Below are positions 12,189-51,293 of a DNA stretch of 64,000 nt, in pieces. Each line of letters opens with the position of its first letter. The stretch's first letter is position 1. This DNA is from Candidatus Uhrbacteria bacterium. Lineage in GTDB: Bacteria; Patescibacteriota; Patescibacteriia; GWA2-47-26. The position numbers and the translations under genes were made by a program. The notes beneath the pieces were generated by a model. It did not search any database. It was not told where the DNA came from and saw only the letters and a program-made list of their open reading frames with translations. Location of the stretch: positions 257,556-321,555 of the forward strand of contig JACPJN010000006.1 of assembly GCA_016187515.1 (NCBI GenBank), read 5' to 3'.

Positions 12189-13520
12189 TTACCGCGGCAG
12201 CGGGCTGAATTTTTGTCCAAGTTCCCAATTCGGATCCACATCCAGTTTTTGCCACGGGGTAAACCCCCACACCAAAGGCCGCCGTTTTCCCCGTTTTGGT
12301 GTGGGGGTAAATTGTTTTGCCTGCGCCATAAAATAGCCGGCCACGGCAATCATGGCGGCGTTGTCCGTCGCGTATGCGACGGATGGCATAGAGCATAGAG
12401 CAGATGGCGTATGGCGTTTTATGGCTTCTACCAACCGCTGGCGTAATCTGGCGTTCGCTGCTACGCCGCCACCGAGGAGAACGGTTTTTACTTTGTATTT
12501 TTTTGCGGCACGAATGGTTTTTGAAACCAATACATCCACCACCGCCTCTTGAAATGCATAACACAAGGAAGCTAAGAGCTTAGGGCTAAGGGCATAGAGT
12601 TTTGCTCTATGCTCTATGCTCTGCGCTCTAAGCCAATAGAGTACGGCGGTCTTAAGACCGGAAAAACTAAAATCAAAATCCGGAGAATCAATCATGGGGC
12701 GAGGGAAAGTTAGGTGATTAGGTACGTAGGTAGTTAGGTACGTAGGTTTGTTTCCCGCGTACCTTCGTACCTTAGTACCTTCGTACCATTTCTCGGCTTC
12801 CCGAGAAATGGCCGGCCCTCCCGGGTAGCCGAGATTAAGCATCTTCGCCACTTTATCAAACGCCTCTCCGGCCGCATCGTCGCGCGTCTCACCAACAATT
12901 TTAAAATCCAAATGTCCGCGCATGAGCACCAGTTCAGTGTGGCCACCACTCACAATCAGCGCAAGCGCTGGGAATTGCATAGGGCTTAGGGCGTAGTGCG
13001 TAGGGTTTTGCTCTATGCTATATGCTCTATGCTCTATGCTGCGAATTTTCTCTCCGAGAAAATTCGCATACACATGTCCCGCCAAATGATTAACCGCCAC
13101 CACTGGTTTTTTCCAAAGCCAAGAAAGAGTGCGGGCCACCTCCACCCCCACAAGCAATGAGGTTGCCAATCCCGGACCGGCAGTAACGGCAATGGCGTCA
13201 ATTGAAGAAGACCAAGCGACTAAGCGACTAAGCGACTGGGTCGTTTGCTTTTTCTTAATCTCTTCATTTCTTAATCCCTTAATCGCTCTTTCAATCACCG
13301 GAATAATCTTCTCCACATGCGCCCGCGCCGCCACCTCCGGAACCACTCCGCCCGTTTTCGCATGAATTTTAATCTGGGACGCTATAATGTTACTTAAAAC
13401 TGAACAACGAAACGACTGAACAACCGGTTGTTTCGTTGTTTCGTTGCTCCGTCGTTCAGTTATCTCCACCACCGCCGCCGCCGTCTCATCACAACTCGTT
13501 TCAATCCCCAAAATTCTCAT
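12189..13520 (-). CDS. tsaD: tRNA N6-adenosine threonylcarbamoyltransferase TsaD (Kae1/Gcp), lengthened by about 100 aa of in-frame repeat insertions
   Basis: MRILGIETSCDETAAAVV…, HLAGH, GGGVAAN. The protein is 443 aa against about 340 aa typical. The extra segments coincide with hairpin repeat blocks at 12381-12425, 12571-12633, 12711-12811, 12977-13067 and 13201-13300. Confidence 0.85.
   Translation of the reverse strand: MRILGIETSCDETAAAVVEITERRSNETTKQPVVQSFRCSVLSNIIASQIKIHAKTGGVVPEVAARAHVEKIIPVIERAIKGLRNEEIKKKQTTQSLSRLVAWSSSIDAIAVTAGPGLATSLLVGVEVARTLSWLWKKPVVAVNHLAGHVYANFLGEKIRSIEHRAYSIEQNPTHYALSPMQFPALALIVSGGHTELVLMRGHLDFKIVGETRDDAAGEAFDKVAKMLNLGYPGGPAISREAEKWYEGTKVRRYAGNKPTYLTTYVPNHLTFPRPMIDSPDFDFSFSGLKTAVLYWLRAQSIEHRAKLYALSPKLLASLCYAFQEAVVDVLVSKTIRAAKKYKVKTVLLGGGVAANARLRQRLVEAIKRHTPSALCSMPSVAYATDNAAMIAVAGYFMAQAKQFTPTPKRGKRRPLVWGFTPWQKLDVDPNWELGQKFSPLPR
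12571..12633. repeat. heptamer hairpin (GCTAAGA/GCATAGA family) in-frame in tsaD
   Basis: gctaagagcttagggctaagggcatagag-tttt-gctctatgctctatgctctgcgctctaagc. Confidence 0.65.
12711..12811. repeat. octamer hairpin (AGGTACGT units) followed by a second short hairpin, in-frame in tsaD
   Basis: aggtacgtaggtagttaggtacgtagg – tttgtttcccgcg – taccttcgtaccttagtaccttcgtacc, then ccatttctcggcttcccgagaaatgg. Confidence 0.6.
12977..13067. repeat. heptamer hairpin followed by a short hairpin, in-frame in tsaD
   Basis: gcatagggcttagggcgtagtgcgtagggttttgctctatgctatatgctctatgctctatgc, then gcgaattttctctccgagaaaattcgc. Confidence 0.6.
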
Positions 13521-13522
13521 AT

Positions 13523-14842
13523 TTAAAAACTTTTTCTTTCTTTTAAAATCTTTCCTTCACTATACCACCTTTTCCGGAGTTCACCAGCCAAAAAGAATGA
13601 CCCGGTTACCAATACCAGATCATCTGCAAGCACGGCGGCAAGTGCGGCCGAAAGCGCATCGCGGCAATCCATATCTACTTCCGCGCGCGTTCCACGCTTT
13701 GCATACTTTTTTACAACCCGCAGTAATTCACGCGGATGCGCGCACTTGCGTAGCGGCATATCAAATCGCGTTATATAGATTTGGTCAGCTTCCGGCGCAA
13801 TCACTTTGCAAATACCGTCAATATCTTTATCAGCCGCGATCGCAAGGACTAGGTGTAATTTTCTAAACTTCACGCGTTCCACATTCGCTACTGTGGCTCT
13901 CATTTTACTGACACTATGCGCGCCATCAAGTATCACCAACGGTCTCTTCCGCATTCCTTCAAATCGACACGGCAAACGCGCTTTCTTAATCCCTTTGATA
14001 ATCGCACGTTCCGGAATTTTAAAATACTTCGCAATCTCCCATACGAGCGCCGTATTCTTTCCCTTATAATCCATCCCCAACTGCAATGTTTTAATGCTTT
14101 CATGTTTTAATGCTTTAATATCCATCACCTTCGCCCCTTTCTGCTTCCCCATCTTCTCAAACATCCGCGTGAGCTGCGGGCGCGCCTCGGCCGTAAAAAA
14201 CGGTACGCCACGGCGCATAATTCCGGCTTTTTCGCGCCCGATTTTAGTGAGCGTAGACCCGAGCAGGTGAGTATGATCATAGTCCACGTTGGTCAGCACC
14301 GTAGCTACGCATCCATTAATCAGTACACCCGGATCATATTTTCCGCCCAGTCCTACTTCCAAAACCACCCACTTACACTTTTGCCGTAAAAAATACTTTA
14401 CCGCAATCGCAAACCAAATTTCAAAATACGACGGTCCGCCGTATGGCGACTTTAAATAGGCGCGCGTAATGTATGGCTTAAGCTCATCCACGATATGCGC
14501 CAACTCTTGCGGAGAAATGTATTGGTCACCAACGCGAATCTTTTCAATGGAAGTGGTGGTGAACGGGGTGCTAAAAGAACCCACGCGCCTGCCGGCCGCG
14601 CGCAAAACCTCATGCAGCATGGCAGTTACAGACCCTTTTCCGGAAGTCCCGGCAATATGAATGAACTTGAACTGCGTCTGATTTAAAATACCAATCAATT
14701 CAAAAAAATACCTCATTCGCTTGAGGTATTTCTCCGGCTCGTTCCTATCCCGCATGTAATCCTTCTGCCCTGGAACATTTTTCAGACCCTCAAGAAACCG
14801 AATTGTCTCAAAATACGCCTCAAACTTTTTGTCCATATACAT
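13523..14842 (-). CDS. folC: folylpolyglutamate synthase / dihydrofolate synthase (Mur ligase family)
   Basis: HIAGTSGKGS P-loop, VLEVGLGG, and a Mur-ligase C-terminal region. Confidence 0.8.
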   Translation of the reverse strand: MYMDKKFEAYFETIRFLEGLKNVPGQKDYMRDRNEPEKYLKRMRYFFELIGILNQTQFKFIHIAGTSGKGSVTAMLHEVLRAAGRRVGSFSTPFTTTSIEKIRVGDQYISPQELAHIVDELKPYITRAYLKSPYGGPSYFEIWFAIAVKYFLRQKCKWVVLEVGLGGKYDPGVLINGCVATVLTNVDYDHTHLLGSTLTKIGREKAGIMRRGVPFFTAEARPQLTRMFEKMGKQKGAKVMDIKALKHESIKTLQLGMDYKGKNTALVWEIAKYFKIPERAIIKGIKKARLPCRFEGMRKRPLVILDGAHSVSKMRATVANVERVKFRKLHLVLAIAADKDIDGICKVIAPEADQIYITRFDMPLRKCAHPRELLRVVKKYAKRGTRAEVDMDCRDALSAALAAVLADDLVLVTGSFFLAGELRKRWYSEGKILKERKSF

Positions 14843-15503
14843 ACCTCGGGTTCACCAGAAACTCCCACCGCACGATCTGCCTCTTCACCAGGAAAGCGAG
14901 TGCATTATTCAAAACCACATAAGTTACCGCGATTCCAAGCGCAAAAAGCGCGCGTTCCATGGCCACCACCGGAATAAGACCGACCCAGACCGCTTTGGGA
15001 AGCGCAAACACCCAAATCCAAAGCGCGCCGCCAACCGCGTGGGCGGAAAATGTCGCGCCTAACGCACGGGCCAATAAAAATCTATCGCGCGCGAAATACA
15101 TAACAATAGGAATAAGCCAAAACATCGCGTAGTACCAAACGGTTCGTCCAATTGGGTGCGCAAGCCAAGCGGCAATCGCCAGTACCGGCACAATCCAGTT
15201 AAACCGACTTTTGCTTCCAAAATACCACGCCGCGAATAACATCGGGAAAAAACGAATAATCGTCCCGGCATCAACCGCTTGCGCGCCATGAATTAAAAAA
15301 TTTATAAACTGCATCAGAAACACCGCGATTATTCCAGGCAATGTTCCAATAAAACCAGTGGCGACCGGCCCAAAAAAATCAAACAGCGTAAACTTCGCTT
15401 TTGAGCCGGCCAGTTGCGTCACCGGAACCTGGAGCGCAAGGAGGCCGAGTACGGCAAAGAGTGCGATGAATAAGATGTTGCGTTTGGTGAAGTGTTTTTT
15501 CAT
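14820..15503 (-). CDS. integral membrane protein (possible ECF-type vitamin/folate substrate-binding S component)
   Basis: About 227 aa with 5-6 TM helices. The start was set at MKKHF. The gene lies directly downstream of folC. The function is inferred from context only. Confidence 0.45.
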   Translation of the reverse strand: MKKHFTKRNILFIALFAVLGLLALQVPVTQLAGSKAKFTLFDFFGPVATGFIGTLPGIIAVFLMQFINFLIHGAQAVDAGTIIRFFPMLFAAWYFGSKSRFNWIVPVLAIAAWLAHPIGRTVWYYAMFWLIPIVMYFARDRFLLARALGATFSAHAVGGALWIWVFALPKAVWVGLIPVVAMERALFALGIAVTYVVLNNALAFLVKRQIVRWEFLVNPRYVYGQKV

Positions 15504-15579
15504 ACTCTCTCTAACGTCATCCCCGCGGAAGCGGGGATCCATGGATTCCCGATCAAGTCGGGAATGACAACGGATTATG

Positions 15580-16368
15580 TTAAAATTCCTTTGCCTTACC
15601 AAGCTCCATTTTTACAAATTCAATGCCGCTTCCCGCCAGTCCGGTTTCAAAAATTTTGTACCACGGTACTTCCGGCCATTTTACCATAGCGTCGTGAATG
15701 GGGATAGCATATTTAGGTTTGACTTTTTTTACAAATTCCAATCCTTCCCGCACCGCCATCCATGGCGCCACCACTGGTACGGCCAGAATCTCGGCCTGTA
15801 CTTCTTCTGACGGCGTAACACAATCGCCCGGGTGGAATAATTTGCCCGCAATGAGAAAGCCGACATTTTCCACGCGCGGGAAATGATCCGCAATATGGCC
15901 GTGGTCACAGGCAATAGCACGAATAGTTACTCCCTGCACCGTACGAATCTCGCCTGGCTTCAAAATCTCAATCTTAAATTTAATACCATTCTCCGTAAGC
16001 ACCTTTTTTACTCCCTCATTCGTCAGTATCAACCCTGATTCTTGATTCATGATTCCTGATTCATAAATCTGCTTCAGCGCCTCCGGATCCGTATGATCCG
16101 CGTGCTCATGTGTCAAAAGTAAAACATTGCACTGCGGCAAATCCTCCGGCTTCAATAATTTCCGCGTGGTTCCGCGTACGGCCGCATGGTAAGCGCATGA
16201 ATGATCACACCCCATGCCGCGGCCGCCTTCCGCGTGGTTCCGCGAAGCCGTGGAAAAAGAAATTTCTCCATCATTGCCTTTAAACACATAACTGCCCGGG
16301 TCAATCAAAATCCGCGCGGTTCCTTCCTCAATAAACAAACACGAATGTCCGTATTTAGTAACACGCAT
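15580..16368 (-). CDS. MBL-fold metallo-hydrolase
   Basis: VLLLTHEHADHTD (HxHxDH) and a CDHGH motif. Confidence 0.75.
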   Translation of the reverse strand: MRVTKYGHSCLFIEEGTARILIDPGSYVFKGNDGEISFSTASRNHAEGGRGMGCDHSCAYHAAVRGTTRKLLKPEDLPQCNVLLLTHEHADHTDPEALKQIYESGIMNQESGLILTNEGVKKVLTENGIKFKIEILKPGEIRTVQGVTIRAIACDHGHIADHFPRVENVGFLIAGKLFHPGDCVTPSEEVQAEILAVPVVAPWMAVREGLEFVKKVKPKYAIPIHDAMVKWPEVPWYKIFETGLAGSGIEFVKMELGKAKEF

Positions 16369-16488
16369 AGTTTTGTTCTGGTATGGTTATACAACCAAAA
16401 ACCGAACCTATTTTGAACGGAATTGACTAATTGCCGCTGAACGAAGTTCCAACATTCTTTGGACAAAACCAGATAATAAGGAAGTCCG

Positions 16489-18777
16489 CTAATGCTGATG
16501 ATTATACGCTCCGGACATAATGAATTGTCTGGCTTCTTGCGCATTACGAGGATGTAAGCCGGGTTTTAATTCTTTCGCATAAACTGTATCTGCAAAATCC
16601 CATGTAACTTTTTTATCTTTGTCTAATATGCCTCGCCACAAGCCCCGACCGCAGGTACATGCGTATATTTCTTTAAAATCAGATGAGGATCCCAAGCAAT
16701 AAGCGTAATTATGAATATTTCCCGGCACCATTTGTTCCGGCAATGATTTTTCCCAGGTGGCGCCGCCATCGCGCGTTACGACAATATTTTCTCCATGATG
16801 TCCGACAATTAAATGATTGGCGTCTTTAGGATCAATCAAAACCATTTCGTAGTTTGGCATATGGCCAAAATTATAGAGCCAGCCGATAAAATCTATTGGC
16901 TGATCCTCTCCATATTTGCGAATGCCAGCGGTGATTTCCTGCCAGGTTTTCCCGCCGTCCTTGCTTTGGAAAATACCCCCGTATTTGCCGGAAGTTTGCT
17001 CCTCGGTTGAAAGCTGGGCAAAAAATACATTTGAAATAGCCACGAGCACGTTTGAATCGCCGGCAGACATTGCCAAACGATAAGTATATTTGAGCGAGTT
17101 ATCGCCAAGCGGCGCGAAATTACGCCCGCTATCATTGCTTTTGAACACTCCGGAGCCCAAGGCGGACGCGTACACAATGTTTGAATTATCAGGATGGAAT
17201 AATATAGAATAGACCGCGAAATCATCTATGCCTTCCGCGCGAGTCCAGCTTTGCCCTTGATCGCGCGACTCCCATAATCCCTCGCCAGACGGCGTTTCGG
17301 CTGTTTCCATGCTTACGCCAACAAGTATATGTCGGGAATCTTTTGGGTCAACCGCGATTGATTTTATGAGAGTTCCTTCGCCCCCCGGTTTATTTTTTTC
17401 AATAAATTTTCCTCCAGCTTTGGAAACGTTTCCGACAATAAATTGATCGCCTCCCAAATATACGCGCGCAAAATCGTTTGGATCAGGCCGCATAGTAATA
17501 ATATTATAATCCAAAGCCATACGTTTATATGTTTTGCCGCCATTTTTTGACCAATAAAAACCCAGCCGATCCCAGGTGCCGACATATATTTCATTCTCAT
17601 CGTTTGGATTTACATGTACTTCTCTTGTGGCAACAGAAACCATGCCGTTGTTTAATTCCCCAAAAGTTTCGCCGCCATCAGCAGAAACATAGATACCATT
17701 TCCGTGTACTCCAACATATATTTTGGAACTCAAACTTACAATTTCGCCGATCCAACTTTGCGGCAGGCCTTGTGAATTTTTTTTGTCAAAAGTAAAGCCA
17801 TCGTTTGAGGATAATAGTAACGAATCTCCTGTTCCAACGAATAGGGTTTCATTATCTGTTCCGATGCCGGTAATATTTTTTAAAGCATCTACCCTTACCC
17901 ATGATGACGCATCCTTACTCAATGCATATACACCACCGCCTTCTCTCGAATTAAATTGCAAACGTGACCCCAGCAAGTACAAGTTATTTTTGAAATTTAG
18001 AAACCGCGTGGTAGTCAAATTGTCTAATCCCGCATTAAGTGCTGCCCAGCTTTTACCCTTATCCGCGGACACCAGCACCCCGTCTTCAACCGTGCCAAGA
18101 TACATTTTTGAATTGAAAAAATAAAGATGGTTGAAGTCGTAATGCCGGTCAAACACAAAACGCCTTTCCCAATTATTCCCGCCGTCGATAGAAACGACAA
18201 GCATACTTACGCCATCATGCGTATCGCCGGGAACATATATTATTTTTGAGTCAGCCGGATCAAGCGCCGATGTATGCGCGCTGAAATTATCCGCCTGGAT
18301 ATCGCTAAGCATGTTGCCGCACAGCCCTGCCCAGCGCGCGCCGTTATTTTCCGTCTTGGAGATACAGGCGATCATTTCCGGAACATAGGCGATATTCTTA
18401 TTAACCGGATCCGCCACAATATCAAATCCGCGGTTTTCTGAAATTCCGCGTCCAATTCCGATCTGCTTCCACGAATTATTTTTTTGCAGTTCATACACTC
18501 CGCCGGAATACAAAGACGCCCAAACTGTGCCTTGATGCGGGATCATTCTAATCACCGTTCCGCCGAGCGGCCCCGATGATTGCGCCCAACCGAATTGGTC
18601 AGGATCAGCCGGAATATCAAAAGACGGATCATCAAAAACCGACTCAGACGATGGCCCGTTGATTGTTCCACCCAATCTCAATGGATGATTTCGCGCCAAG
18701 AAAAAATAGAACGCCACCAGTCCTAATACGGCTATACCTATAATCAGTGTTATTAAAATTGGCGATTTTATTTTCAT
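16489..18777 (-). CDS. secreted/membrane-anchored BNR/Asp-box repeat beta-propeller protein (sortilin/Ycf48-like)
   Basis: N-terminal TM segment (ILITLIIGIAVLGLVAFYFFLA). At least 8 Asp-box S-x-D-x-G-x-T-W motifs (SIDGGNNWERR, SADKGKSWAAL, SADGGETFGEL, SKNGGKTYKRM, SRDQGQSWTRA, SKDGGKTWQEI, TRDGGATWEKS). AT-rich codon usage. Confidence 0.7.
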   Translation of the reverse strand: MKIKSPILITLIIGIAVLGLVAFYFFLARNHPLRLGGTINGPSSESVFDDPSFDIPADPDQFGWAQSSGPLGGTVIRMIPHQGTVWASLYSGGVYELQKNNSWKQIGIGRGISENRGFDIVADPVNKNIAYVPEMIACISKTENNGARWAGLCGNMLSDIQADNFSAHTSALDPADSKIIYVPGDTHDGVSMLVVSIDGGNNWERRFVFDRHYDFNHLYFFNSKMYLGTVEDGVLVSADKGKSWAALNAGLDNLTTTRFLNFKNNLYLLGSRLQFNSREGGGVYALSKDASSWVRVDALKNITGIGTDNETLFVGTGDSLLLSSNDGFTFDKKNSQGLPQSWIGEIVSLSSKIYVGVHGNGIYVSADGGETFGELNNGMVSVATREVHVNPNDENEIYVGTWDRLGFYWSKNGGKTYKRMALDYNIITMRPDPNDFARVYLGGDQFIVGNVSKAGGKFIEKNKPGGEGTLIKSIAVDPKDSRHILVGVSMETAETPSGEGLWESRDQGQSWTRAEGIDDFAVYSILFHPDNSNIVYASALGSGVFKSNDSGRNFAPLGDNSLKYTYRLAMSAGDSNVLVAISNVFFAQLSTEEQTSGKYGGIFQSKDGGKTWQEITAGIRKYGEDQPIDFIGWLYNFGHMPNYEMVLIDPKDANHLIVGHHGENIVVTRDGGATWEKSLPEQMVPGNIHNYAYCLGSSSDFKEIYACTCGRGLWRGILDKDKKVTWDFADTVYAKELKPGLHPRNAQEARQFIMSGAYNHQH

Positions 18778-18782
18778 ATTAT

Positions 18783-18917
18783 TTATCTCAACAATTTCTC
18801 AATAGAAACTTTTAATGCTTTGGCAATTTTTGCCATAGTTTGAACGCTCGGCTTATTAACTGTGCCGCTTTCGACTGCTTTCTTTATATTTTCGCTGATT
18901 ATTCTTTCACTTGTCAT
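18783..18917 (-). CDS. possible truncated XRE-family HTH fragment, 44 aa
   Basis: MTSERIISENIKKAVESGTVNKPSVQTMAKIAKALKVSIEKLLR matches only the C-terminal half of Cro/XRE HTH domains. It abuts the left end of the IS30 element. Confidence 0.25.
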   Translation of the reverse strand: MTSERIISENIKKAVESGTVNKPSVQTMAKIAKALKVSIEKLLR

Positions 18918-18981
18918 ATTAGTAAAGTTTTGGTACTTATTGTAGTAAGTATGATTATTACCTATATTGCTATACTAGGCG

Positions 18982-20049
18982 GTCTCTAGAATCTAACGCA
19001 ATAGTAAGTTAAATGCTTCATAAGGCGTTGCGTAATCAAGAACCTTTCGAGGCCTGCCGTTGAGAAGGTGTTGCACATGCTTCACTTCTCGGCGGGAGAT
19101 CTTTGAAAAGTCAGTGCCTTTCGGAAAGAACTGTCGGATCAGGCCGTTGGTATTCTCATTCGTGCCGCGCTCCCATGGGCTCGCGGGATGAGCAAAGTAC
19201 ACCTGCATCTTCGTGTCTCCCGTGAACAGTTTATGCTCGGCCATCTCTCGGCCTTGATCGTAGGTCATGGAAAGGCGCATATGGGCAGGCAACTTCTTTG
19301 CCTCTTTGGCAAACGCTTTCCGTACCGTTTCCGCAGTTCTGTTCTTCAGGGGCACCAGAATCGTGGTGCGTGTGGTGCGTTCCACAAGGGAGCCAAGCGC
19401 GGATTGTCGGTTCTTGCCAATCAGGAGATCGCCTTCCCAGTGACCCGGGATTATCCGATCTGCAACTTCTGCCGGACGCTCTTCTATGGAGAGCATATCC
19501 TCCAGTTTCCGCTCAAAGACGGGCGTTTCTCCGTGGCGCCGTTTGTGCCGTCGCTTCCTCTCGCGCCTCAGACAGGCCAGGAGCTCTTTCTTGAGAGCAC
19601 CCTTTGGCAGAACATAGAGGTATGAGTAAATCGCTTCCGGAGATATGCGCATAGTCATATCTAGAGGATACTCCTTGGCAATCTTGCGAGCAATTTCCTC
19701 AGGTGACCAACGCAGGCGAAGTTTCGCATACACATACCGGCGAATACGGGGCTGCAGCAGGATCTTGCGTTTCCACAGCTTTCTCTTTCTGGCTTTTCGA
19801 CGGGCACGCCTGTGAGCAGTGGCTGCGCGGTACACATACCGATTGCATCCTCCTGCCGAGACCTCATGACTGATGGTGCTCACAGACCTGCCAAGGAAAC
19901 GGGCAATATCTCCAAATGAACATCCTTGGGCGAGCATTCTGCTGATCTCCTCTCGCTCACCCTCACTTAAACGATGATAATTCATAGGTCTAACGCGTTA
20001 CTGATAATACCGGAACGGTATCATAAGTGTTGCGTTAGATTCTAGAGTC
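18982..20049. mobile_element. IS30-family insertion sequence
   Basis: 20-bp terminal inverted repeats (g[t/a]ctctagaatctaacgcaa, one mismatch) at 18982-19001 and 20030-20049 enclose a single DDE transposase ORF. Confidence 0.8.
18993..19985 (-). CDS. IS30-family DDE transposase
   Basis: The N-terminal HTH reads EGEREEISRMLAQGCSFGDIARFLGRSVSTISHE. The C-terminal integrase-like core reads …MTYDQGREMAEH…AHPASPWERGTNENTNGLIRQFFPKGTDF…. Confidence 0.85.
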   Translation of the reverse strand: MNYHRLSEGEREEISRMLAQGCSFGDIARFLGRSVSTISHEVSAGGCNRYVYRAATAHRRARRKARKRKLWKRKILLQPRIRRYVYAKLRLRWSPEEIARKIAKEYPLDMTMRISPEAIYSYLYVLPKGALKKELLACLRRERKRRHKRRHGETPVFERKLEDMLSIEERPAEVADRIIPGHWEGDLLIGKNRQSALGSLVERTTRTTILVPLKNRTAETVRKAFAKEAKKLPAHMRLSMTYDQGREMAEHKLFTGDTKMQVYFAHPASPWERGTNENTNGLIRQFFPKGTDFSKISRREVKHVQHLLNGRPRKVLDYATPYEAFNLLLR

Positions 20050-20163
20050 TAACTTACTAAATAAAATGAAAATAATCAAACAAATTTCTTGGCGGCGCAT
20101 TTCGCAAAGCGAAATACAAAATTCGGCGGCGGCAAAAAAGCGAGGGCGGGCCTAGGCCGCACT

Positions 20164-20220
20164 CCGCGCGGTTCCTTCTTCAATAAATAAACACGAATGC
20201 CCGTACTTTGTAATGCGCAT
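20164..20220 (-). pseudogene. diverged duplicate of the 5' end (start codon plus about 19 codons) of the MBL-hydrolase gene
   Basis: 57 bp at about 88% identity to 16312-16368. It encodes MRITKYGHSCLFIEEGTAR, against MRVTKYGHSCLFIEEGTAR in the original. Confidence 0.6.
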
Positions 20221-20221
20221 A

Positions 20222-20905
20222 TTAGCAATTTTCGCAAAGCCCTTCGATATATCCTTTAATCCTATAAAAAAGAACCCGTTTATTAATTCTAATGCTGACC
20301 GTGCCGAATGGAAGTGATCGCTTTGGCCGCTTTAATCTACTTGCACTGCTAAGCTGTTGTGTAATGTAAAATATATCAACCGGCAATTTGGTGACTTTTG
20401 ACCAGAATATCTTTGCTTCTTCAATATCGAGATTGGGATGAACCTGGATTTGTGCGCGTATCAATTCATCAGGAACATTTAGCACCTCCCTTACAAAACG
20501 CATAAATAACGCAATGAGGCGCGGGTCGGAATTTGCAATGGCTACACGAATGTTTTTCCGACTGTGCTCGCTTTTGGTACCCTCTCCCCAGTACAAGGCA
20601 GCTCCAATGAGCAACAATTCTCTTCGTGACAAATCACCAATCTCCTCCATCGCGCGAGTATGAGCAGTTTTATTTTCTTGTAAGATAGCTTCGGTGCGAT
20701 CTTTATTGTATTGCAATAAACCGCGCTCCTGCGCAAGCAATACATTGTGCTCAAGCCGTTTCTTTGCTTCGGTTGGTAGTACAAGATCCCGAAACCAATA
20801 GCTCAATGTACCCTTCGAAGGAATACTGAGTATTTTTCTGATTTCATTATAACTCTTCCCTTGTAATCGGAGGGCTATAGCTTGTTGTTTTTCTAATCGT
20901 CTCAT
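20222..20905 (-). CDS. HTH-domain protein with a LAGLIDADG-like (homing-endonuclease-like) domain
   Basis: The N-terminal HTH reads LRLQGKSYNEIRKILSIPSKGTLSYW. The central segment LLLIGAALYWGEGTK…IRVAIANSDPRLIALFMRFVRE resembles the LAGLIDADG_3 pattern. The assignment is tentative. Confidence 0.4.
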   Translation of the reverse strand: MRRLEKQQAIALRLQGKSYNEIRKILSIPSKGTLSYWFRDLVLPTEAKKRLEHNVLLAQERGLLQYNKDRTEAILQENKTAHTRAMEEIGDLSRRELLLIGAALYWGEGTKSEHSRKNIRVAIANSDPRLIALFMRFVREVLNVPDELIRAQIQVHPNLDIEEAKIFWSKVTKLPVDIFYITQQLSSASRLKRPKRSLPFGTVSIRINKRVLFYRIKGYIEGLCENC

Positions 20906-20974
20906 ATTTGTACAGCTGTATCTACTCTATCACGGATTACTACAGCGGTACAAATCCTACTCTGCTAAAACTTC

Positions 20975-21049
20975 TGACCCCACCGGGATTTGAACCCGGG
21001 TTAGCTGGCTGAAAACCAGCTGTCCTAGACCAGGCTAGACGATGGGGTC
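20975..21049 (-). tRNA. tRNA-Glu (anticodon UUC)
   Basis: The reverse complement GACCCCATCGTCTAGCCTGGTCTAGGACAGCTGGTTTTCAGCCAGCTAACCCGGGTTCAAATCCCGGTGGGGTCA folds as a cloverleaf with a 7/7 acceptor stem and a GTTCAAATC T-loop. No CCA is encoded. Confidence 0.8.
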
Positions 21050-21104
21050 ATAATAGTATAAGATTGTACTAAGGATACCTTATTTTTGAAGTGCTGTCAA
21101 TAAT

Positions 21105-21413
21105 ATGGTGAATGAGGAGCGCATCAGAGAACTGGCCAAAGCCATGTCTAGAAAACTGGCAGGTGGTATGGACTATGGAGAGGCACAAAAGCAAGTCTTT
21201 CACGGCTTACGAGGTGATGAACGCGCTGAGTATCTATCCGCGGTGGGAAGCCGGCTCAGCATGAGCGGTCATCTTCAGCGGGCGCGGGAATTGCCTAACG
21301 TACCGCCACCGCCGAAAGATACACCCGCGACCACTGCCACAGAACAACTCGGATTTGGTTTTGGCGAAGGTCCGCGGCGGAAAATCCGCCCGCCTACGCG
21401 GCGTCACTTGTAA
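21105..21413 (+). CDS. hypothetical protein, 102 aa
   Basis: An intact ORF with a Pro-rich C-terminal half. No family recognised. Confidence 0.4.
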   Translation: MVNEERIRELAKAMSRKLAGGMDYGEAQKQVFHGLRGDERAEYLSAVGSRLSMSGHLQRARELPNVPPPPKDTPATTATEQLGFGFGEGPRRKIRPPTRRHL

Positions 21414-21482
21414 AGGCGAGTTGCATTTTTGAAATATACACGCTACACTAAAGCAATTGCCATAACCCCTCCTACCCTTATC

Positions 21483-21516
21483 TTTCCGCCCGAGGCGGAT
21501 CCGCCTCGGGCGGAAA
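21483..21516. promoter_or_regulatory. perfect 34-bp palindrome immediately upstream of the Hsp20 gene (candidate operator or terminator)
   Basis: tttccgcccgaggcggatccgcctcgggcggaaa. It does not match the CIRCE consensus. Confidence 0.3.
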
Positions 21517-21537
21517 GGGGAGGAAATAAAAGAAATT

Positions 21538-21939
21538 ATGCCTGAACTAGAATTTCTACGTCCCGAAGTCAGCCAACACGCCGAGTCCTGGCAGCTCTCG
21601 CGCGATGAGGGGGAGCTTGCGGTGGACGTCTATGAGCTGGGCAAAGCAATCTACATCAAAACCGCGATCGCCGGGGTGCGTCCGGAACATTTAAAAATTT
21701 CTCTCTCTTCCGATATGCTGACCATCCGCGGGGTACGCCATGAAGAGGAGGCCAGCGCAGAAGAGAAACGCTATCTTTGCCAAGAATGCCACTGGGGCCC
21801 GTTTTCAAGAACCATCATCTTACCCGCGGAAATTGACGCGGCCAAAGCCGAGGCCACTTTTAAAAGCGGGCTTTTGGTAATCAAGCTTCCCAAAACAAAA
21901 AAGAAAAACGAAATTAAAGTCCGGGTGGAGGAGGAATAA
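21538..21939 (+). CDS. Hsp20/alpha-crystallin family small heat-shock protein
   Basis: The alpha-crystallin domain contains …DMLTIRGVRHEE…GPFSRTIILPAEID…FKSGLLVIKLPK. Confidence 0.85.
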   Translation: MPELEFLRPEVSQHAESWQLSRDEGELAVDVYELGKAIYIKTAIAGVRPEHLKISLSSDMLTIRGVRHEEEASAEEKRYLCQECHWGPFSRTIILPAEIDAAKAEATFKSGLLVIKLPKTKKKNEIKVRVEEE

Positions 21940-22006
21940 TGCCGCGGAACCTACACTGAACTACAGCGGAACATACCCGGAATCCCGCGTATGTTCTGAA
22001 ATTTAT

Positions 22007-25158: not shown

Positions 25159-26628
25159 TTGTCAAGCCCCTGTACAATAAGCCATTATATGGCCTCGCTT
25201 ACCCGGCTGATCGCGCGCAATACTGCCATCCATACGACGGGCAAACTTCTCAATCTGCCGATCGTGCTTATCGTCGTGGCCGTGATGACCCGCGCGCTTG
25301 GTCCCGAGGGCTTTGGCGGATATTCCACCATTATCGCCTTTTTGCAATTTTTCGGCATCACCGCCAATTTCGGCCTGCTGCTGACGGCCAACCGGCTCTT
25401 GGGAGAAACCGCGACGGAAACCGCGCGCAGCCGGCTAATGTCGAATTTATTCACCCTCCGGTTCTTTTCCTCGCTTATCTTTTTGTCCCTGGCTCCGCTC
25501 CTGGCCCTTTTATTCCCCTACCCCGCCGCGGTTAAGCAGGGCATGTTCATTACGGCGCTCTCGTTTTTAGCCATCAGCTTGGCCGAGACCTTGGTACCCG
25601 TCTTCCAAAGAGAGCTGCGCATGGGTTATGTGGCGGCCGCCGAACTGGCCGCCCGCTTCACCTTGCTTGCCGGAGTGGCGCTAACGGCGTATTTTCACGC
25701 CGGACTATTGTGGTTTTTGGCCGCGATTGTCGCTGGCAGCGCGATGCAATTCCTCATGATGCGGATCTTTACGGGAAAATTTATTGAACTGCATCTGGCC
25801 TTCGATTGGACGGTGTGGCGCAAAATTATCGGCATTTCCTGGCCCATTGGCCTATCTATCCTTTTCAATTTAATCTACCTTAAAGCCGACACCATTATTC
25901 TCTCGGCCTTGCGCACCCAGACCGAAGTGGGTTTTTACGGGGCCGCTTATCGGGTGCTGGATCAGCTGACCGGGTTTGCCACCATGTTTATCGGACTGCT
26001 CATGGTCCCGCTTACCGCCGCTTGGGTGGCCCGCGATCAAACCAGATTTCGGCGCATTTACCAGCGGGCTTTTGATGCCTACGCGGTCGTGGCCTGGCCG
26101 CTGTTAGTCGGGGCCTGGCTGATTGGCGAGCGACTGATGATTTTCGTCGCTGGCAGCGCGTTTGCGGCTTCGGGAAAAATTCTGGCGATCCTGATGATTG
26201 GGATGACTTTTGTATTTTTCTCCACGCTGTTTGGCCATGTAGTGGTGGTCGTAGACAAACAGCGCCCGATGATTTGGGGTTATGTGATTACCGCGGTAGC
26301 CGGTTTCAGCGCCTACGCGCTTACGATTCCGCGCTTTGGAATTTGGGGCGCGGCTTGGTCTACGGTTGGCGCTGAAGCCCTGATCATGATCTTAACCGCG
26401 GCCATGGTCTGGCGCGCCACCCGCGCGCCGCTGGAATTGTCTATCTTTTCCAAAGGATTGCTGGCTTCCATTATTTTAGGGCTATTCTTATACTTCACCC
26501 GCGTCTTCCCGCTGGCTATTCCATTATTTGGCGGCGCGCTCATCTACTTTGCCGCCCTCTACGCTTTCGGTGGAATTAAAAAAGAACTTATCCGCGATAT
26601 TGTTTCCTTACGCAATTCCCCCTCTTAA
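25159..26628 (+). CDS. polysaccharide biosynthesis protein / oligosaccharide flippase (MOP/Wzx-like)
   Basis: 489 aa with about 14 TM helices, typical of Wzx/MurJ-like exporters. The start could instead be 25189. Confidence 0.7.
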   Translation: MSSPCTISHYMASLTRLIARNTAIHTTGKLLNLPIVLIVVAVMTRALGPEGFGGYSTIIAFLQFFGITANFGLLLTANRLLGETATETARSRLMSNLFTLRFFSSLIFLSLAPLLALLFPYPAAVKQGMFITALSFLAISLAETLVPVFQRELRMGYVAAAELAARFTLLAGVALTAYFHAGLLWFLAAIVAGSAMQFLMMRIFTGKFIELHLAFDWTVWRKIIGISWPIGLSILFNLIYLKADTIILSALRTQTEVGFYGAAYRVLDQLTGFATMFIGLLMVPLTAAWVARDQTRFRRIYQRAFDAYAVVAWPLLVGAWLIGERLMIFVAGSAFAASGKILAILMIGMTFVFFSTLFGHVVVVVDKQRPMIWGYVITAVAGFSAYALTIPRFGIWGAAWSTVGAEALIMILTAAMVWRATRAPLELSIFSKGLLASIILGLFLYFTRVFPLAIPLFGGALIYFAALYAFGGIKKELIRDIVSLRNSPS

Positions 26629-48840: not shown

Positions 48841-48880
48841 CCGGCAGACCAGGGACAAAACTTCCCGTCTGCCGGTTTTT
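48841..48880 (+). terminator. rho-independent terminator
   Basis: ccggcagaccagggacaaaacttcccgtctgccggtttttt. Confidence 0.6.
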
Positions 48881-48960
48881 TAATTTCGATAATATTTCGC
48901 CGCGTCTTCAGGAGAGATGGGGTTGATGATCAGTCCCGAGCCGATCTCCACCCAGCCCAG
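48880..48960 (-). pseudogene. diverged duplicate of the 3' end (about 23 codons plus stop) of the GalT-like gene
   Basis: Encodes …VEIGSGLIINPISPEDAAKYYRN*. It is about 85% identical to 50373-50454, the true C-terminus …VEIGSGLIINPVSPEDAAKYYRS*. Confidence 0.6.
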
Positions 48961-48978: not shown

Positions 48979-49692
48979 TTATTTTAGGGCCGCTAGATAA
49001 TTTTTGAGCAGGAAAATCGTTTCTTTTTTTAGATTTTTTTTCACCCACATCTTTTCTTTTTCCTCCAATTGCTCGCCTATTCCTTGTAACAATTGATTAT
49101 CTTTTATTTCTTGAATAAAAGATATGCAGTCCGGTAAATATTCTTTAACCAGCTTACCTGTGCGCGCTTTGACTATTTCCTCGCTGATATCCCAGTTATG
49201 TTTGGCAAAAAAATAGATATCGTAGATATCGCGCATGGCCATTTTTTTGCGTGCTTTCAAGGCGACCAACTTATTGGCAAAGAGGGAGTGCTGTTTTGCC
49301 GCCAGCATAGAAATACCCAAATATTCTTTTAGCTCATAGTATTGTTTGATTGCAAACGGAAACTCTCTTCTGGAGATTTCAATTTTAATATTGTGGTCTT
49401 TATCCCCATAGGAAAGTAGTGCAAAGATAGTATATTTTTTTACATAACTTTCTTTGATATCTCCATAATTTTGGATAATATTCAGAATCTTTTTCAAGAT
49501 ATTTTCCAGACCTTCTTTATCAAGATTAGCAAGCAAATCAAAATCAAGATCTACCGAGAACCGCGTCAATCCATAAAAAAAGTACGCGCAAGTTCCGCCC
49601 TTAAAGCCGAGAAACGGCGCCAGGGAAATGTCCGTATAGATATCCTTGAGAATCTGGCCCATGATGCGCTGATGCCTTGCTTTATCAAGCAT
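48979..49692 (-). CDS. abiEii: AbiEii/AbiGii-family nucleotidyltransferase toxin (type IV TA, DUF1814)
   Basis: GFKGGTCAYFFYGLTRFSVDLDFD is the NTase motif. The length matches the family. The region is AT-rich. Confidence 0.75.
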   Translation of the reverse strand: MLDKARHQRIMGQILKDIYTDISLAPFLGFKGGTCAYFFYGLTRFSVDLDFDLLANLDKEGLENILKKILNIIQNYGDIKESYVKKYTIFALLSYGDKDHNIKIEISRREFPFAIKQYYELKEYLGISMLAAKQHSLFANKLVALKARKKMAMRDIYDIYFFAKHNWDISEEIVKARTGKLVKEYLPDCISFIQEIKDNQLLQGIGEQLEEKEKMWVKKNLKKETIFLLKNYLAALK

Positions 49693-50269
49693 AGAGCTTG
49701 TGATAGGAATTAAGACGATTGATCAATTGTTTACTTTGATAAAGTGTTACTAACTGAAAGCATTTCTCCCATTGTAAACTTTTGAGATTATCAAAGTAGT
49801 ACTCCGGGAAAAGATATATCATATCCAAAAATGCGCGCTCTGGGCTGGCAATACTATAGGCGCCCCGATGAACTATACCATTAGGATTGTAGAGTATCTC
49901 ATCTTTGAGTTTTCTGAAGACAAAGCGGGAATGATCACAAATGACCTTTCGCGAAAACCGGCTTGCGAAAAAAATGGCCTGATAATATTGAAAAATTATA
50001 CCCGCTTCCCGCAATACGGTTTCAAAACTCATATAAGACGGCGTATAAATTTTGCTCCCGAGCTCCAACACGTCATAATTGTCTTGGTCCTTTACGTATA
50101 TGCCGCGGCGCAACTGATGAAGTTTGCCCTGTTTCACGTAATAATGAATGCGGGCTTTCAGTGTTGACAAATGCTTTTCTCCCCACAAAATGGCGATCTC
50201 TTTTGTGGTTAGTACGGTATTTTTAGCTCGATATAGCTCCAAAATATCAAACTTTTTCAATTTTTTCAT
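49685..50269 (-). CDS. abiEi: AbiEi-family antitoxin / transcriptional regulator
   Basis: The N-terminal winged HTH reads VLTTKEIAILWGEKHLSTLKARIHYYVKQGKLHQLRRGIYV. It overlaps the toxin gene by 8 nt. The size and arrangement are typical of AbiEi. Confidence 0.65.
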   Translation of the reverse strand: MKKLKKFDILELYRAKNTVLTTKEIAILWGEKHLSTLKARIHYYVKQGKLHQLRRGIYVKDQDNYDVLELGSKIYTPSYMSFETVLREAGIIFQYYQAIFFASRFSRKVICDHSRFVFRKLKDEILYNPNGIVHRGAYSIASPERAFLDMIYLFPEYYFDNLKSLQWEKCFQLVTLYQSKQLINRLNSYHKLYA

Positions 50270-50372: not shown

Positions 50373-51293
50373 TCAACTCCGATAATACTTTGCCGCGTCT
50401 TCGGGGGAAACCGGATTGATGATAAGTCCCGAGCCGATCTCCACCCCAGCCCAAATTGAGCCGCGGGGGGTGATTTTCATGTAAAGATGCTGATCTTCGT
50501 CATGGATAACTTGGTGGAAGTAGAAATTGTAAGGAAGGTTAAGCGCGGCGATTTTTTTCAAAATGCGCTTTAGGATTTTTGCCCAAGAGAGCCGTTCGGC
50601 GTCATTTAAGAGCGTCACATTATCCAGGTGCCGGCGCGGCAGAATCCATACTTCGTAATTGTGCATAGAGGCGTAGGGAGTAAAGGCAATCACTTGCGCA
50701 TCCTCAAACACCAGCCGCGGCCCCGTGCGTTCGCGCGCGATCACATCGCAATACACACAACGGCCGGTACGCAGTTTATACGCTTGCACCTTCTGCGACT
50801 TATCAAAGAGGTGCGGAGGCAAGAAATGGGTGGCAAAAATCTGCGAATGCGCATGTTGGATTGAGGCGCCGGCCGGTCCGCCCGCGTTTTTAAAAATGAG
50901 AATGTATTCGATTTTTTTGTCTTTGGCGATAGCGTCCGTGCGCGCCGCATAGGTGGAGAGTAACTTCGCCACGTGTGGATCAGACAACTCTTCGAGATGG
51001 GTGCCATGTTTAGGGGTTTCCACCACGACTTCCTGCACGCCGTAGGCCTTGGGATTTTCCAAAGAGACGGCGGGGAATTTATTAGGGACGACTTTTATTT
51101 GCCACACTTTATTTCCTCCAACTTCCAGGACATATCCCTCCTGATCCAATTTTTCCGGGCAAAATCGGCAAGGAGGCGGCACCACTTTTTGCGGCGCAGT
51201 TGGCGCAACCTCATGCGGCCGCACCCCCCGCCTAGGCGCAATGATCACGTACTTGTCTTGAATATAATCTTTGCGGATCTCGGATCCCAGCAT
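50373..51293 (-). CDS. galactose-1-phosphate uridylyltransferase-like (GalT / HIT superfamily) protein
   Basis: CRFCPE zinc motif near the N-terminus. The HxHxQ active site reads SIQHAHSQ. Confidence 0.7.
   Translation of the reverse strand: MLGSEIRKDYIQDKYVIIAPRRGVRPHEVAPTAPQKVVPPPCRFCPEKLDQEGYVLEVGGNKVWQIKVVPNKFPAVSLENPKAYGVQEVVVETPKHGTHLEELSDPHVAKLLSTYAARTDAIAKDKKIEYILIFKNAGGPAGASIQHAHSQIFATHFLPPHLFDKSQKVQAYKLRTGRCVYCDVIARERTGPRLVFEDAQVIAFTPYASMHNYEVWILPRRHLDNVTLLNDAERLSWAKILKRILKKIAALNLPYNFYFHQVIHDEDQHLYMKITPRGSIWAGVEIGSGLIINPVSPEDAAKYYRS

What the first reader, a model, noticed from the sequence alone, without database searches (positions are those of the whole stretch)
16312..20221. 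A 3.9-kb block (BNR-repeat protein plus IS30) is flanked by a duplicated 5' end of the MBL-hydrolase gene and abuts an HTH/LAGLIDADG-like gene
The first 57 bp (ATG plus 18 codons) of the MBL-hydrolase gene (16312-16368) recur at 20164-20220 at about 88% identity. The copy encodes MRITKYGHSCLFIEEGTAR and then hits an immediate stop. Between the two copies lie the AT-rich BNR/Asp-box secreted-protein gene, a possible XRE-like remnant, and an intact IS30 element. The duplicate's ATG sits 1 nt after the stop of the HTH-LAGLIDADG-like gene at 20222-20905. This is the same architecture as the AbiE locus: an accessory block inserted next to a gene end, with that end duplicated. It suggests a recurrent insertion mechanism in this genome, possibly endonuclease-assisted.
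Basis: seen in the sequence. Interest (0 to 1): 0.55.

Follow-up and report, generated by a model that had tools for sequence, protein, structure and literature searches.

The report
Orphaned gene start beside acquired block
The short second copy of the hydrolase gene's start is the leftover stump of the genome's original copy, cut off when foreign DNA arrived together with a replacement gene start from a related bacterium; it is a clear but fairly ordinary footprint of horizontal gene transfer.

Summary
A 59-nt direct repeat (16311-16369 / 20163-20221, 88% identical) brackets a 3.85-kb block, and independent assemblies reproduce it.

- **Ancestral site.** In relatives of this Candidatus Uhrbacteria genome, a full-length MBL gene lies directly downstream of tRNA-Glu. 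The copy at 20164-20220 is therefore a stump at the ancestral site.
- **Origin of the stump.** Six of its seven differences from the intact gene are synonymous. Simulation rejects "identical duplication, then decay". The two copies come from two once-functional alleles.
- **The block.** Its core (leader, truncated XRE ORF, BNR gene; 44% GC against 53% for the window) recurs at 90% DNA identity in another Uhrbacterium, in a different context. There it is uninterrupted, so the IS30 element inserted later.
- **The HTH gene.** It does have a LAGLIDADG fold. However, it is a conserved neighbour of tRNA-Glu in relatives that lack any insertion, so a role as the insertion agent is unsupported.
- **Recurrence.** The AbiE locus shows the same architecture (72 nt, 85%, synonymous-biased). 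So does a BNR homologue in a Parcubacteria contig.

Best reading: a recombinational displacement with a replacement gene terminus. Whether the join was illegitimate or site-specific is unresolved. No integrase was found.

The parts
20974..21050 (-). tRNA-Glu(UUC); the conserved backbone anchor upstream of the locus
   Evidence: ARAGORN; Rfam tRNA, 58.3 bits. The same tRNA precedes the MBL gene in L011, L012, L045, L046 and L048, and precedes the HTH gene in L125 and L127.
20222..20905 (-). 227-aa protein with an N-terminal HTH and a C-terminal LAGLIDADG-fold domain. It is an ancestral neighbour of tRNA-Glu, not part of the insertion.
20152..20220 (-). Orphaned 5' stump of the resident MBL gene: 19 homologous codons (20164-20220), then SAA and a stop
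   Evidence: 51 of 58 nt identical to copy A, against 43-47 of 58 to any orthologue. 6 of 7 differences are synonymous. Neutral decay is rejected.
20134..20169 (-). GC-rich imperfect hairpin (11 pairs) followed by T6, resembling a terminator. Its 5' arm overlaps the last 7 nt of the stump, which makes it the candidate illegitimate joint.
   Evidence: RNA fold. Not called by the simple terminator scan. Absent from L131, where a different terminator occupies the equivalent place.
20055..20114 (-). Leader of the transferred module, separated from the rest of the module by IS30
   Evidence: 83% identical to L131 7713-7772, which in L131 lies 16 nt from the remainder of the module.
18978..20054 (-). 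IS30-family insertion sequence (transposase 18993-19985; inverted repeats 18984-19001 and 20030-20047). A secondary insertion.
   Evidence: NF033563, E = 3e-87. HTH_38 plus rve. 18-nt perfect inverted repeats. It interrupts sequence that is contiguous in L131. The outer limits and the 2-5-nt target duplication (TA/TAGTA) are uncertain.
16478..18935 (-). Transferred AT-rich module: the truncated XRE-like ORF (18783-18917) and the secreted BNR/Sortilin-type beta-propeller gene (16489-18777)
   Evidence: 2461 nt at 90% identity to L131 7789-10237. GC is 43.8% here and 41% in L131, against 52.6% and 55% for the respective hosts. Pfam. The protein is 91% identical in Uhrbacteria FULL_53_10, 74% in a Parcubacteria genome, and 60-68% in genomes that include many labelled as DPANN archaea.
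16369..16477 (-). Spacer upstream of the intact MBL gene. Its origin is unknown; presumably donor context carrying the gene's present promoter.
   Evidence: No similarity to L131, to the stump's upstream region, or to a tRNA.
15580..16368 (-). Intact MBL-fold hydrolase gene. Copy A is its first 57 nt (16312-16368).
   Evidence: Pfam. Orthologues at 53-70% identity.
48880..48953 (-). Second case: orphaned 3' stump (last 24 codons plus stop) of the GalT-like gene, beyond the AbiE pair
   Evidence: 72 nt at 85% identity to 50375-50446. 10 of 12 nucleotide differences are synonymous. The stop codon is kept in place (TAA against TGA).
48979..50269 (-). AbiEii toxin gene (48979-49692) and the upstream 194-aa partner (49685-50269); the inserted accessory block of the second case
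   Evidence: PF08843, E = 1.3e-19. The partner has no Pfam hit. The same arrangement appears in population contigs L133 and L134.
50373..51293 (-). Intact GalT/HIT-like gene whose 3' end (50375-50446) is the counterpart of the stump
   Evidence: Pfam GalP_UDP_transf.

Best explanation
**What it is.** The copy at 20164-20220 is the orphaned start of the MBL-hydrolase gene that originally sat here, immediately after tRNA-Glu and the HTH-LAGLIDADG gene.

**How it arose.** DNA from a related Uhrbacterium recombined into that gene. The incoming DNA carried:
- a terminator-like hairpin;
- an AT-rich module (leader, decayed XRE ORF, secreted BNR beta-propeller gene);
- about 107 nt of spacer;
- an allelic MBL gene start, or possibly the whole allelic gene.

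On the gene side the exchange was homologous. At the far side the incoming end was joined inside the resident gene after codon 19, most likely at a short GC-rich microhomology (GCGCGGA). This would be homology-facilitated illegitimate recombination, or a related one-sided repair. The hydrolase stayed intact with a new 5' end and promoter, and the old 19 codons were left as a stump. IS30 later transposed into the module's leader. The AbiE cassette at the 3' end of the GalT-like gene arose in the same way.

**Shown:** the ancestral position, the foreign module and its limits, the later arrival of IS30, and the diverged-allele origin of the two copies.

**Inferred:** the direction of transfer, the nature of the joint, and which enzymes acted.
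For: **Ancestral site.** tRNA-Glu is followed within 8-13 nt by a full MBL gene in L011, L012, L045, L046 and L048. The VanW-DUF3006-HSP20-tRNA-Glu...TsaD backbone is shared with these relatives.

**Native junction.** The HTH gene follows tRNA-Glu in L125 and L127. In L125 the next gene starts 1 nt after its stop, exactly as the stump does here.

**Diverged alleles.**
- 6 synonymous differences and 1 V/I difference out of 7 at the MBL locus; 10 of 12 synonymous at the GalT-like locus.
- Simulation of duplication plus neutral decay gives P = 0.004-0.02 and 0.002-0.015 respectively, and a joint P <= 8e-4.
- Similarity starts at the ATG for MBL and at the stop codon for the GalT-like gene.
- A and B are closer to each other (51/58) than to any orthologue (43-47/58), and only they share the codon for T17.

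**Foreign module.** 90% DNA identity to L131 in an unrelated (copper-resistance) context. Its limits fall 48 nt and 107 nt inside the block. Low GC in both hosts.

**IS30 arrived later**.

**No recombinase.** No tyrosine or serine recombinase was found in either block or among the roughly 45 window ORFs scanned.

**The joint.** The hairpin's 5' arm overlaps the stump's last 7 nt.

**Precedent.** Orphaned gene ends left by HFIR-like displacement have been proposed for Vibrio cholerae T6SS and Rhs loci (PMC5361080).
Against: - **Identical runs at the inner edges.** Both stumps end, on the gene-internal side, in a run with no synonymous difference (16 nt and 22 nt), while about half of the remaining codons differ. 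That looks more like a crossover core than a random illegitimate joint.
- **Both stumps are very short and terminal** (57 nt and 72 nt). Under a uniform joint position this is unlikely, although long direct repeats would be unstable and so lost.
- **No donor genome** with the block next to an MBL gene was found.
- **No empty-site variant** exists in the population contigs.
- **Competence genes** were not examined.
- **The microhomology is inferred** from a predicted hairpin, not observed in a donor.
Confidence: 0.5

Rival explanations
1. The block is the decayed or non-autonomous remnant of a site-specific integrative element. Its attachment site lies inside the gene's first 57 nt, and the element carries its own replacement gene start. 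This is what e14 and phage 21 do at the 3' end of icd, and what SXT does at the 5' end of prfC. The integrase has been lost or acts in trans. The 16-nt identical run is the crossover core.
For: - The architecture matches exactly: direct repeats made of a gene terminus, the intact gene continuous with the element-side copy, synonymous-biased differences, and similarity ending at the start or stop codon.
- The longest identical run lies at the gene-internal edge in both loci: 16 nt GAAGGAACCGCGCGGA and 22 nt GGGTGGAGATCGGCTCGGGACT.
- Two such loci occur within 64 kb.
- Known precedents: icd/icdC flanking e14 (PMC13626634) and SXT in the 5' end of prfC (PMC2791158).
Against: - No tyrosine or serine recombinase in either block or among the window ORFs scanned.
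- The AbiE block is only 1.5 kb and holds two genes.
- In L131 the BNR module lacks any MBL-derived flank, and its shared limits fall inside the block.
- The BNR homologue in L132 is flanked by a repeat of a different local gene, so there is no fixed attachment sequence.
- The two putative cores are unrelated in sequence.
- No second stump was found beside the MBL gene in the other 108 loci carrying the N-terminal motif.
Confidence: 0.25
2. One reading: the insertion event itself duplicated 57 nt of the target (a long target-site duplication), and the upstream copy has since decayed.
For: - Direct repeats flank the insert.
- In L132 a BNR homologue is flanked by a near-identical 30-40-nt repeat of local sequence. 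That looks like a fresh target duplication, at a different target.
Against: - A decaying stump should collect mostly non-synonymous changes. Observed: 1 of 7 at the MBL locus and 2 of 12 at the GalT-like locus; simulated joint P <= 8e-4.
- Outgroup comparison suggests that the stump's own derived changes are also third-position changes.
- No indels or stops occur within the 57 nt.
- The repeat starts exactly at the ATG.
- No known transposition chemistry duplicates 57-72 nt, and the only transposase present belongs to a later IS30 insertion.
Confidence: 0.07
3. The genome once had two full MBL paralogues: one after the HTH gene, and one linked to BNR. The first was destroyed by a deletion, possibly promoted by IS30, leaving 57 nt.
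For: - The two copies evolved as separate coding genes.
- An IS30 element lies between them, with no clear target duplication.
Against: - The stump's breakpoint (20163) is 115 nt from the IS30 end (20047-20054).
- 60 of those 115 nt belong to the module leader, which is contiguous with the module in L131. IS30 therefore sits inside the module, not at the breakpoint.
- No relative carries two MBL copies at this locus.
- This model still needs an earlier event to bring the BNR-linked copy within 3 kb of the first.
Confidence: 0.1
4. The HTH-LAGLIDADG protein encoded next to the stump cut the MBL gene start and so triggered the insertion (endonuclease-assisted capture or homing).
For: - LAGLIDADG fold, with an invariant acidic residue in LYWGEG.
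- The gene abuts the stump.
- A double-strand break near codon 19 would fit a one-sided repair.
Against: - The gene family is conserved at 46-71% identity across Patescibacteria.
- It keeps the same position after tRNA-Glu in L125 and L127, with other downstream genes and no stumps.
- The AbiE and L132 cases have no such gene nearby.
- The closest structural match is the non-nuclease regulator WhiA.
- No target site was identified.
Confidence: 0.05

Closest known systems
e14 / phage 21 integration into the 3' end of icd in E. coli (the icdC pseudogene)
   Same: An inserted element is flanked by the intact gene, whose terminus the element supplies, and by a short orphaned copy of the original terminus. 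The two copies differ mainly by synonymous or conservative changes (PMC13626634). The AbiE/GalT-like locus is the direct 3'-end analogue.
   Different: e14 encodes its own integrase and excises. Here neither block encodes a recombinase, one block is only 1.5 kb, and the cargo module is found elsewhere without the gene-derived flanks.
[quoted passage not shown]
   Same: Insertion within the first codons of a conserved gene, with the incoming DNA restoring the gene's 5' end (PMC2791158).
   Different: SXT is a roughly 100-kb conjugative element with a defining tyrosine integrase and a fixed attachment site. None of these features was found here.
Homology-facilitated illegitimate recombination and displacement of gene ends (orphan 3' tips at V. 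cholerae T6SS effector-immunity arrays and Rhs/CDI loci)
   Same: New DNA enters through homology on one side only. The displaced end of the resident gene stays behind as an orphan fragment, and no dedicated recombinase is needed (PMC5361080).
   Different: Those cases involve polymorphic toxin genes with variable ends, where the orphans are long. Here housekeeping-type genes keep the same sequence, the orphans are 57-72 nt, and the payload is an unrelated accessory cassette.
IS30-family insertion sequences
   Same: The element at about 18978-20054 has the family transposase (NF033563) and terminal inverted repeats.
   Different: It explains only its own roughly 1.1 kb. It did not create the 57-nt repeat or bring in the BNR module.
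WhiA and single-domain LAGLIDADG homing endonucleases (I-DmoI, I-CeuI, I-CreI)
   Different: It has one LAGLIDADG domain with an N-terminal (not C-terminal) HTH. It has no Pfam match. It shows conserved synteny rather than the patchy distribution of a selfish gene. Nuclease activity is untested.

Membership tests
Site-specific integrative element with a gene-restoring attachment site (e14/icd, SXT/prfC type) | Direct repeats at both ends, made of the target gene's terminus, with the gene kept intact | tested here: met
   59 nt at 88% at the MBL 5' end; 72 nt at 85% at the GalT-like 3' end.
Site-specific integrative element with a gene-restoring attachment site (e14/icd, SXT/prfC type) | Identical core at the crossover point | tested here: inconclusive
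   16-nt and 22-nt identical runs lie at the gene-internal edges. They could be chance or codon conservation (roughly P = 0.06 and 0.008 by my own estimate).
Site-specific integrative element with a gene-restoring attachment site (e14/icd, SXT/prfC type) | Element-encoded tyrosine or serine recombinase | tested here: not met
   The block genes are BNR, an XRE fragment and an IS30 DDE transposase, or the AbiE pair. No recombinase domain was found among the roughly 45 window ORFs scanned.
Site-specific integrative element with a gene-restoring attachment site (e14/icd, SXT/prfC type) | The same element with the same attachment sequence in other genomes | tested here: not met
   In L131 the module lacks MBL-derived flanks. 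The L132 homologue is flanked by a different gene's start. No second stump was found in 108 MBL loci.
Homology-facilitated illegitimate recombination / gene-end displacement | Donor-type allele continuous with the foreign DNA, and recipient-type fragment on the far side | tested here: met
   The synonymous-biased divergence of the two copies rejects in-situ duplication. The stump is continuous with the conserved backbone, and copy A with the low-GC block.
Homology-facilitated illegitimate recombination / gene-end displacement | Illegitimate joint at a short, often GC-rich, microhomology | tested here: inconclusive
   A predicted hairpin's 5' arm overlaps the last 7 nt (GCGCGGA) of the stump. 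No donor sequence is available to confirm it.
Homology-facilitated illegitimate recombination / gene-end displacement | DNA-uptake and recombination machinery in the host | not tested
   RuvB and RuvC are in the window. Competence genes were not searched, because the rest of the genome is not available.
IS30 family insertion sequence | IS30-type DDE transposase with an N-terminal HTH | tested here: met
   NF033563, E = 3e-87, covering profile positions 1-267. HTH_38 plus rve.
IS30 family insertion sequence | Terminal inverted repeats and a short (2-3 bp) target duplication | tested here: inconclusive
   18-nt perfect inverted repeats. Comparison with the uninterrupted L131 sequence allows a TA or TAGTA duplication, but the region also differs by an indel.
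LAGLIDADG homing endonuclease | LAGLIDADG alpha-beta fold with the acidic residue at the end of the motif helix | tested here: met
LAGLIDADG homing endonuclease | Sequence membership in Pfam LAGLIDADG_1/2/3 | tested here: not met
   No Pfam or NCBIfam hit at E <= 0.01-0.1. No PDB sequence hit.
LAGLIDADG homing endonuclease | Selfish, sporadic distribution (in introns or inteins, or free-standing with a cognate target) | tested here: not met
   The gene is conserved across Patescibacteria and syntenic after tRNA-Glu in the window, L125 and L127.
XRE / HTH_3 regulator | Complete helix-turn-helix domain | tested here: not met
   Only profile positions 29-55 of 55 are matched, at 22.8 bits against a cut-off of 23. 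The L131 counterpart is frameshifted.
AbiE type IV toxin-antitoxin | AbiEii nucleotidyltransferase plus an upstream AbiEi antitoxin | tested here: inconclusive
   AbiEii PF08843, E = 1.3e-19. The overlapping upstream 194-aa gene has no Pfam hit.

The most novel reading that the evidence does not exclude
Patescibacteria (and perhaps DPANN archaea, which share the BNR gene) may have a recurrent route for inserting accessory cassettes that either needs no integrase or uses an unknown recombinase. It would target the first or last roughly 20 codons of conserved genes and supply a replacement terminus. The orphaned 40-75-nt stumps would be its signature. The identical 16-22-nt runs would be its crossover sites.
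Probability: 0.15. Interest if true: 0.7.

Novelty: new member of a known kind. Interest (0 to 1): 0.36.

Why it matters
**Reading the history of acquisitions.** The stump marks exactly where foreign DNA entered, and shows that a replacement gene start came with it. That gives a way to read acquisition history in an uncultured Candidatus Uhrbacteria genome. Two such scars in 64 kb, and a third in a Parcubacteria contig, suggest that short orphaned gene termini could be used to map recent acquisitions in small symbiont genomes that lack obvious mobile-element genes.

**The cargo.** The block carries a secreted beta-propeller protein that is 60-68% identical in genomes labelled as DPANN archaea. 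This is a hint of gene flow between the two groups of ultra-small cells.

**Annotation.** The 22-codon ORF at 20152-20220 is a pseudogene fragment. The IS30 element did not build the block. The neighbouring LAGLIDADG-fold gene is a conserved resident, not a homing element.

Tried and rejected
- **tRNA fragment upstream of copy A.** I looked for a tRNA-Glu fragment there, which would indicate a tRNA-targeting island. The best match was only 15 nt with 3 mismatches, so I rejected it.
- **More stumps at MBL loci.** I searched 132 fetched loci for a second N-terminal MBL motif. Only the window has two.
- **Empty-site variants.** I looked for them among population contigs of the MBL, HTH, AbiEii and GalT-like genes. 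All show the same architecture.
- **Rfam on 15000-22000.** Only the tRNA was found.
- **Simple terminator/promoter scan.** It did not call the hairpin after the stump, and found no more sites than in shuffled sequence.
- **L138 (BNR homologue, 68% identity).** It has no flanking repeat.
- **L131.** The contig ends 137 nt after BNR, so its downstream junction cannot be seen.
- **A 25-nt match** between the spacer and the region upstream of the HTH gene in L129 (E = 0.006) was judged too weak to use.
- **IS30-mediated deletion as the cause of the truncation.** I rejected it because the breakpoint is 115 nt from the IS end and the intervening leader belongs to the module.

Full report
**1.

The repeat finder reports a single 59-nt direct-repeat pair, 16311-16369 and 20163-20221, at 88% identity and 3852 nt apart. 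Self-blastn gives E = 9e-14.

Copy A is the ATG and the next 18 codons (plus one base upstream) of a 262-aa MBL-fold hydrolase gene on the minus strand, 15580-16368 (Lactamase_B_3, E = 1.4e-23). Copy B reads MRITKYGHSCLFIEEGTAR, then SAA, then a stop. Its ATG lies one base after the stop codon of the 227-aa gene at 20222-20905.

Between the copies lie:
- a 762-aa BNR/Sortilin-type protein;
- a 44-aa ORF that matches only the second half of an HTH_3 domain;
- an IS30 element with a full-length transposase and perfect 18-nt inverted repeats.

Contigs assembled independently from several sequencing runs are collinear with the window across both junctions at 99.97% identity or better. The arrangement is therefore not an assembly artefact.

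**2. Where the locus comes from, and its ancestral state**

The 227-aa protein is identical to a protein of a Candidatus Uhrbacteria metagenome-assembled genome.

The closest genomes share the backbone VanW - DUF3006 - HSP20 - small protein - tRNA-Glu ... TsaD. In L011, L012, L045, L046 and L048, a full-length MBL orthologue starts 8-13 nt after tRNA-Glu. In L125 and L127, a 67-70% identical homologue of the 227-aa gene follows tRNA-Glu instead. In L125 the next gene starts one base after its stop, exactly as the stump does in the window.

The stump therefore sits where an MBL gene is expected. None of the fetched relatives has BNR, the 260-aa membrane protein or FolC in this slot.

**3. The two copies are two alleles, not a copy-and-decay pair**

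Of the seven differences, six are synonymous third-position changes and one is V/I. The similarity begins at the ATG and stops abruptly after GGAACCGCGCGGA.

The two copies are closer to each other (51/58) than either is to any orthologue (43-47/58). Only they share the codon for T17.

I simulated an identical duplication followed by neutral decay of the stump and purifying selection on the gene. One or fewer non-synonymous differences out of seven occurs with P = 0.004-0.02, depending on transition bias. So the stump spent most of the divergence time as part of a working gene.

**4. The block is foreign, and IS30 came later**

A contig of another Uhrbacterium (L131; its BNR protein is 91% identical) shares 2461 nt at 90% DNA identity with window 18935->16478. 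It also shares 60 nt at 83% with window 20114->20055. In L131 these two pieces are 16 nt apart, and they follow copper-resistance genes.

Three things follow:
- IS30 interrupts a once-contiguous module made of a leader, the XRE fragment and BNR.
- The XRE ORF was already short before IS30 arrived, and it is frameshifted in L131.
- The module's shared limits lie 48 nt and about 107 nt inside the block's edges.

The module is 41-44% GC in hosts of 53-55% GC. BNR homologues at 60-68% identity include many from genomes labelled as DPANN archaea.

The 48 nt next to the stump fold into an 11-pair GC-rich hairpin followed by T6. The hairpin's 5' arm overlaps the last 7 nt of the stump. In L131 a different terminator occupies the same relative place.

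**5. The pattern recurs**

At the AbiE locus, 72 nt at 48882-48953 repeat the 3' end of the GalT-like gene (50375-50446) at 85% identity, on the far side of the AbiEii gene and its partner gene. The similarity starts at the stop codon, which is kept in place (TGA against TAA). Ten of twelve nucleotide differences are synonymous. The joint simulated probability of both loci under duplication and decay is 8e-4 or less.

In a Parcubacteria contig (L132), a 74% identical BNR gene is flanked by a 30-40-nt repeat. That repeat consists of the 10 nt upstream of, and the first 8 or so codons of, the downstream YggU-like gene.

In both window loci the gene-internal edge of the repeat is a run with no differences (16 nt and 22 nt).

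**6. The neighbouring HTH gene**

The family has 268 detected members across Patescibacteria, at 46-71% identity among the 120 listed. It has no Pfam, NCBIfam or PDB sequence match. It carries invariant LYWGEG and NSD motifs.

However, the gene's conserved position in relatives without insertions, and its absence from the AbiE and L132 cases, give no support for a role in the event.

**7. Mechanism**

The data show a displacement. Foreign DNA, together with an allelic gene terminus, became joined inside the resident gene. The gene stayed intact and an orphaned terminus was left behind.

I favour a one-sided homologous exchange with an illegitimate joint at a GC-rich microhomology, as proposed for orphaned gene ends in V. 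cholerae T6SS and Rhs loci (PMC5361080). My reasons are:
- no recombinase is present;
- the cargo module occurs elsewhere without gene-derived flanks;
- a BNR homologue is flanked by a different local gene's start in L132.

The main rival is a decayed or trans-mobilised integrative element of the e14/icd or SXT/prfC type (PMC13626634; PMC2791158). That model better explains the identical runs at the inner edges and the shortness of both stumps.

The other alternatives are disfavoured respectively:
- a true target duplication;
- paralogue loss through an IS30-mediated deletion;
- endonuclease-assisted capture.

**8. Verdict**

This is a genuine and well-resolved scar of horizontal acquisition, of a kind already known from other bacteria, found here in a Candidatus Uhrbacteria genome. 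Its recurrence gives it moderate interest. The enzymology of the joint is the open point.

Noticed in passing
window 16150-16260 (within the MBL gene): The MBL gene carries an in-frame insert of 38 aa, absent from all orthologues except P0002/L011. The insert is bounded by a perfect 17-nt direct repeat, CGCGGAACCACGCGGAA (16160-16176 and 16228-16244), around a palindrome. The motif GGAACCRCGCGGA occurs only four times in 64 kb: twice here, and once at the inner edge of each 57-nt copy. It resembles the in-frame palindromic elements of Rickettsia; that comparison is from my own recollection.
   Followed up: partly
window 20906-20973; L125 5954-6000; L127 5953-6000: A long imperfect palindrome (TTGTACCGCTGTA...TACAGCTGTACAA) lies between tRNA-Glu and the start of the HTH-LAGLIDADG gene. 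Palindromes with similar TTGTAC...(G/T)(T)ACAA ends occur upstream of its homologues in two other genomes. It is a candidate operator or recognition site for this dimer-type protein.
   Followed up: no
window 16489-18777: The BNR/Sortilin-type secreted protein has homologues at 60-68% identity in genomes that include many labelled Woese-, Micr-, Pace- and Aenigmarchaeota, as well as several CPR lineages. This suggests gene exchange between the two groups of ultra-small cells, or shared contamination of the bins.
   Followed up: partly
L132 765-804 and 3143-3180: In a Parcubacteria contig, the BNR homologue is flanked by a 30-40-nt direct repeat (92-93% identical) made of the start of the downstream YggU-like gene. 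The upstream copy overlaps the stop of a Cu-oxidase_4 gene.
   Followed up: partly
window 18768-18785 and 20058-20075: An 18-nt inverted repeat (94%) brackets the XRE ORF plus IS30. One arm covers the BNR start codon; the other lies just outside IS30. A 10-nt TAGTAAGTTA also occurs in inverted orientation, just inside one IS30 end and just outside the other. This may be chance in AT-rich DNA, or a trace of IS30 target preference.
   Followed up: no
window 20088-20117: Three independent short-read contigs (L004, L005, L006) end within this 30-nt stretch. It coincides with the left limit of the module shared with L131. This suggests that the module is present in more than one genome of the community.
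   Followed up: no
window 849-881, 12385-13039, 26613-26701, 26909-26972, 27857-27947, 33666-33865, 51289-51528, 53585-53626: Families of short low-complexity repeats (AGCATAGGGCATAGAGC...; CCCCTCCCAACCTCCCCTTAACCTAAGGGGAGG...) are scattered through the window. Some lie inside coding regions such as TsaD, where they add odd peptide inserts.
   Followed up: no
L129 9321-9404 and 11802-11885: In a Sungbacteria contig from the same study, an 84-nt palindromic intergenic element (90% identical copies) flanks a 2.4-kb segment.
   Followed up: no
window 15500-15602: The listed 260-aa ORF (14820-15602) overlaps the MBL gene's 3' end. Its first codons run through a palindromic repeat-like sequence (GGGGATCCATGGATTCCCGATCAAGTCGGGAATGACA). 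Gene calls on population contigs give 240 aa, so the true start is probably further downstream.
   Followed up: no
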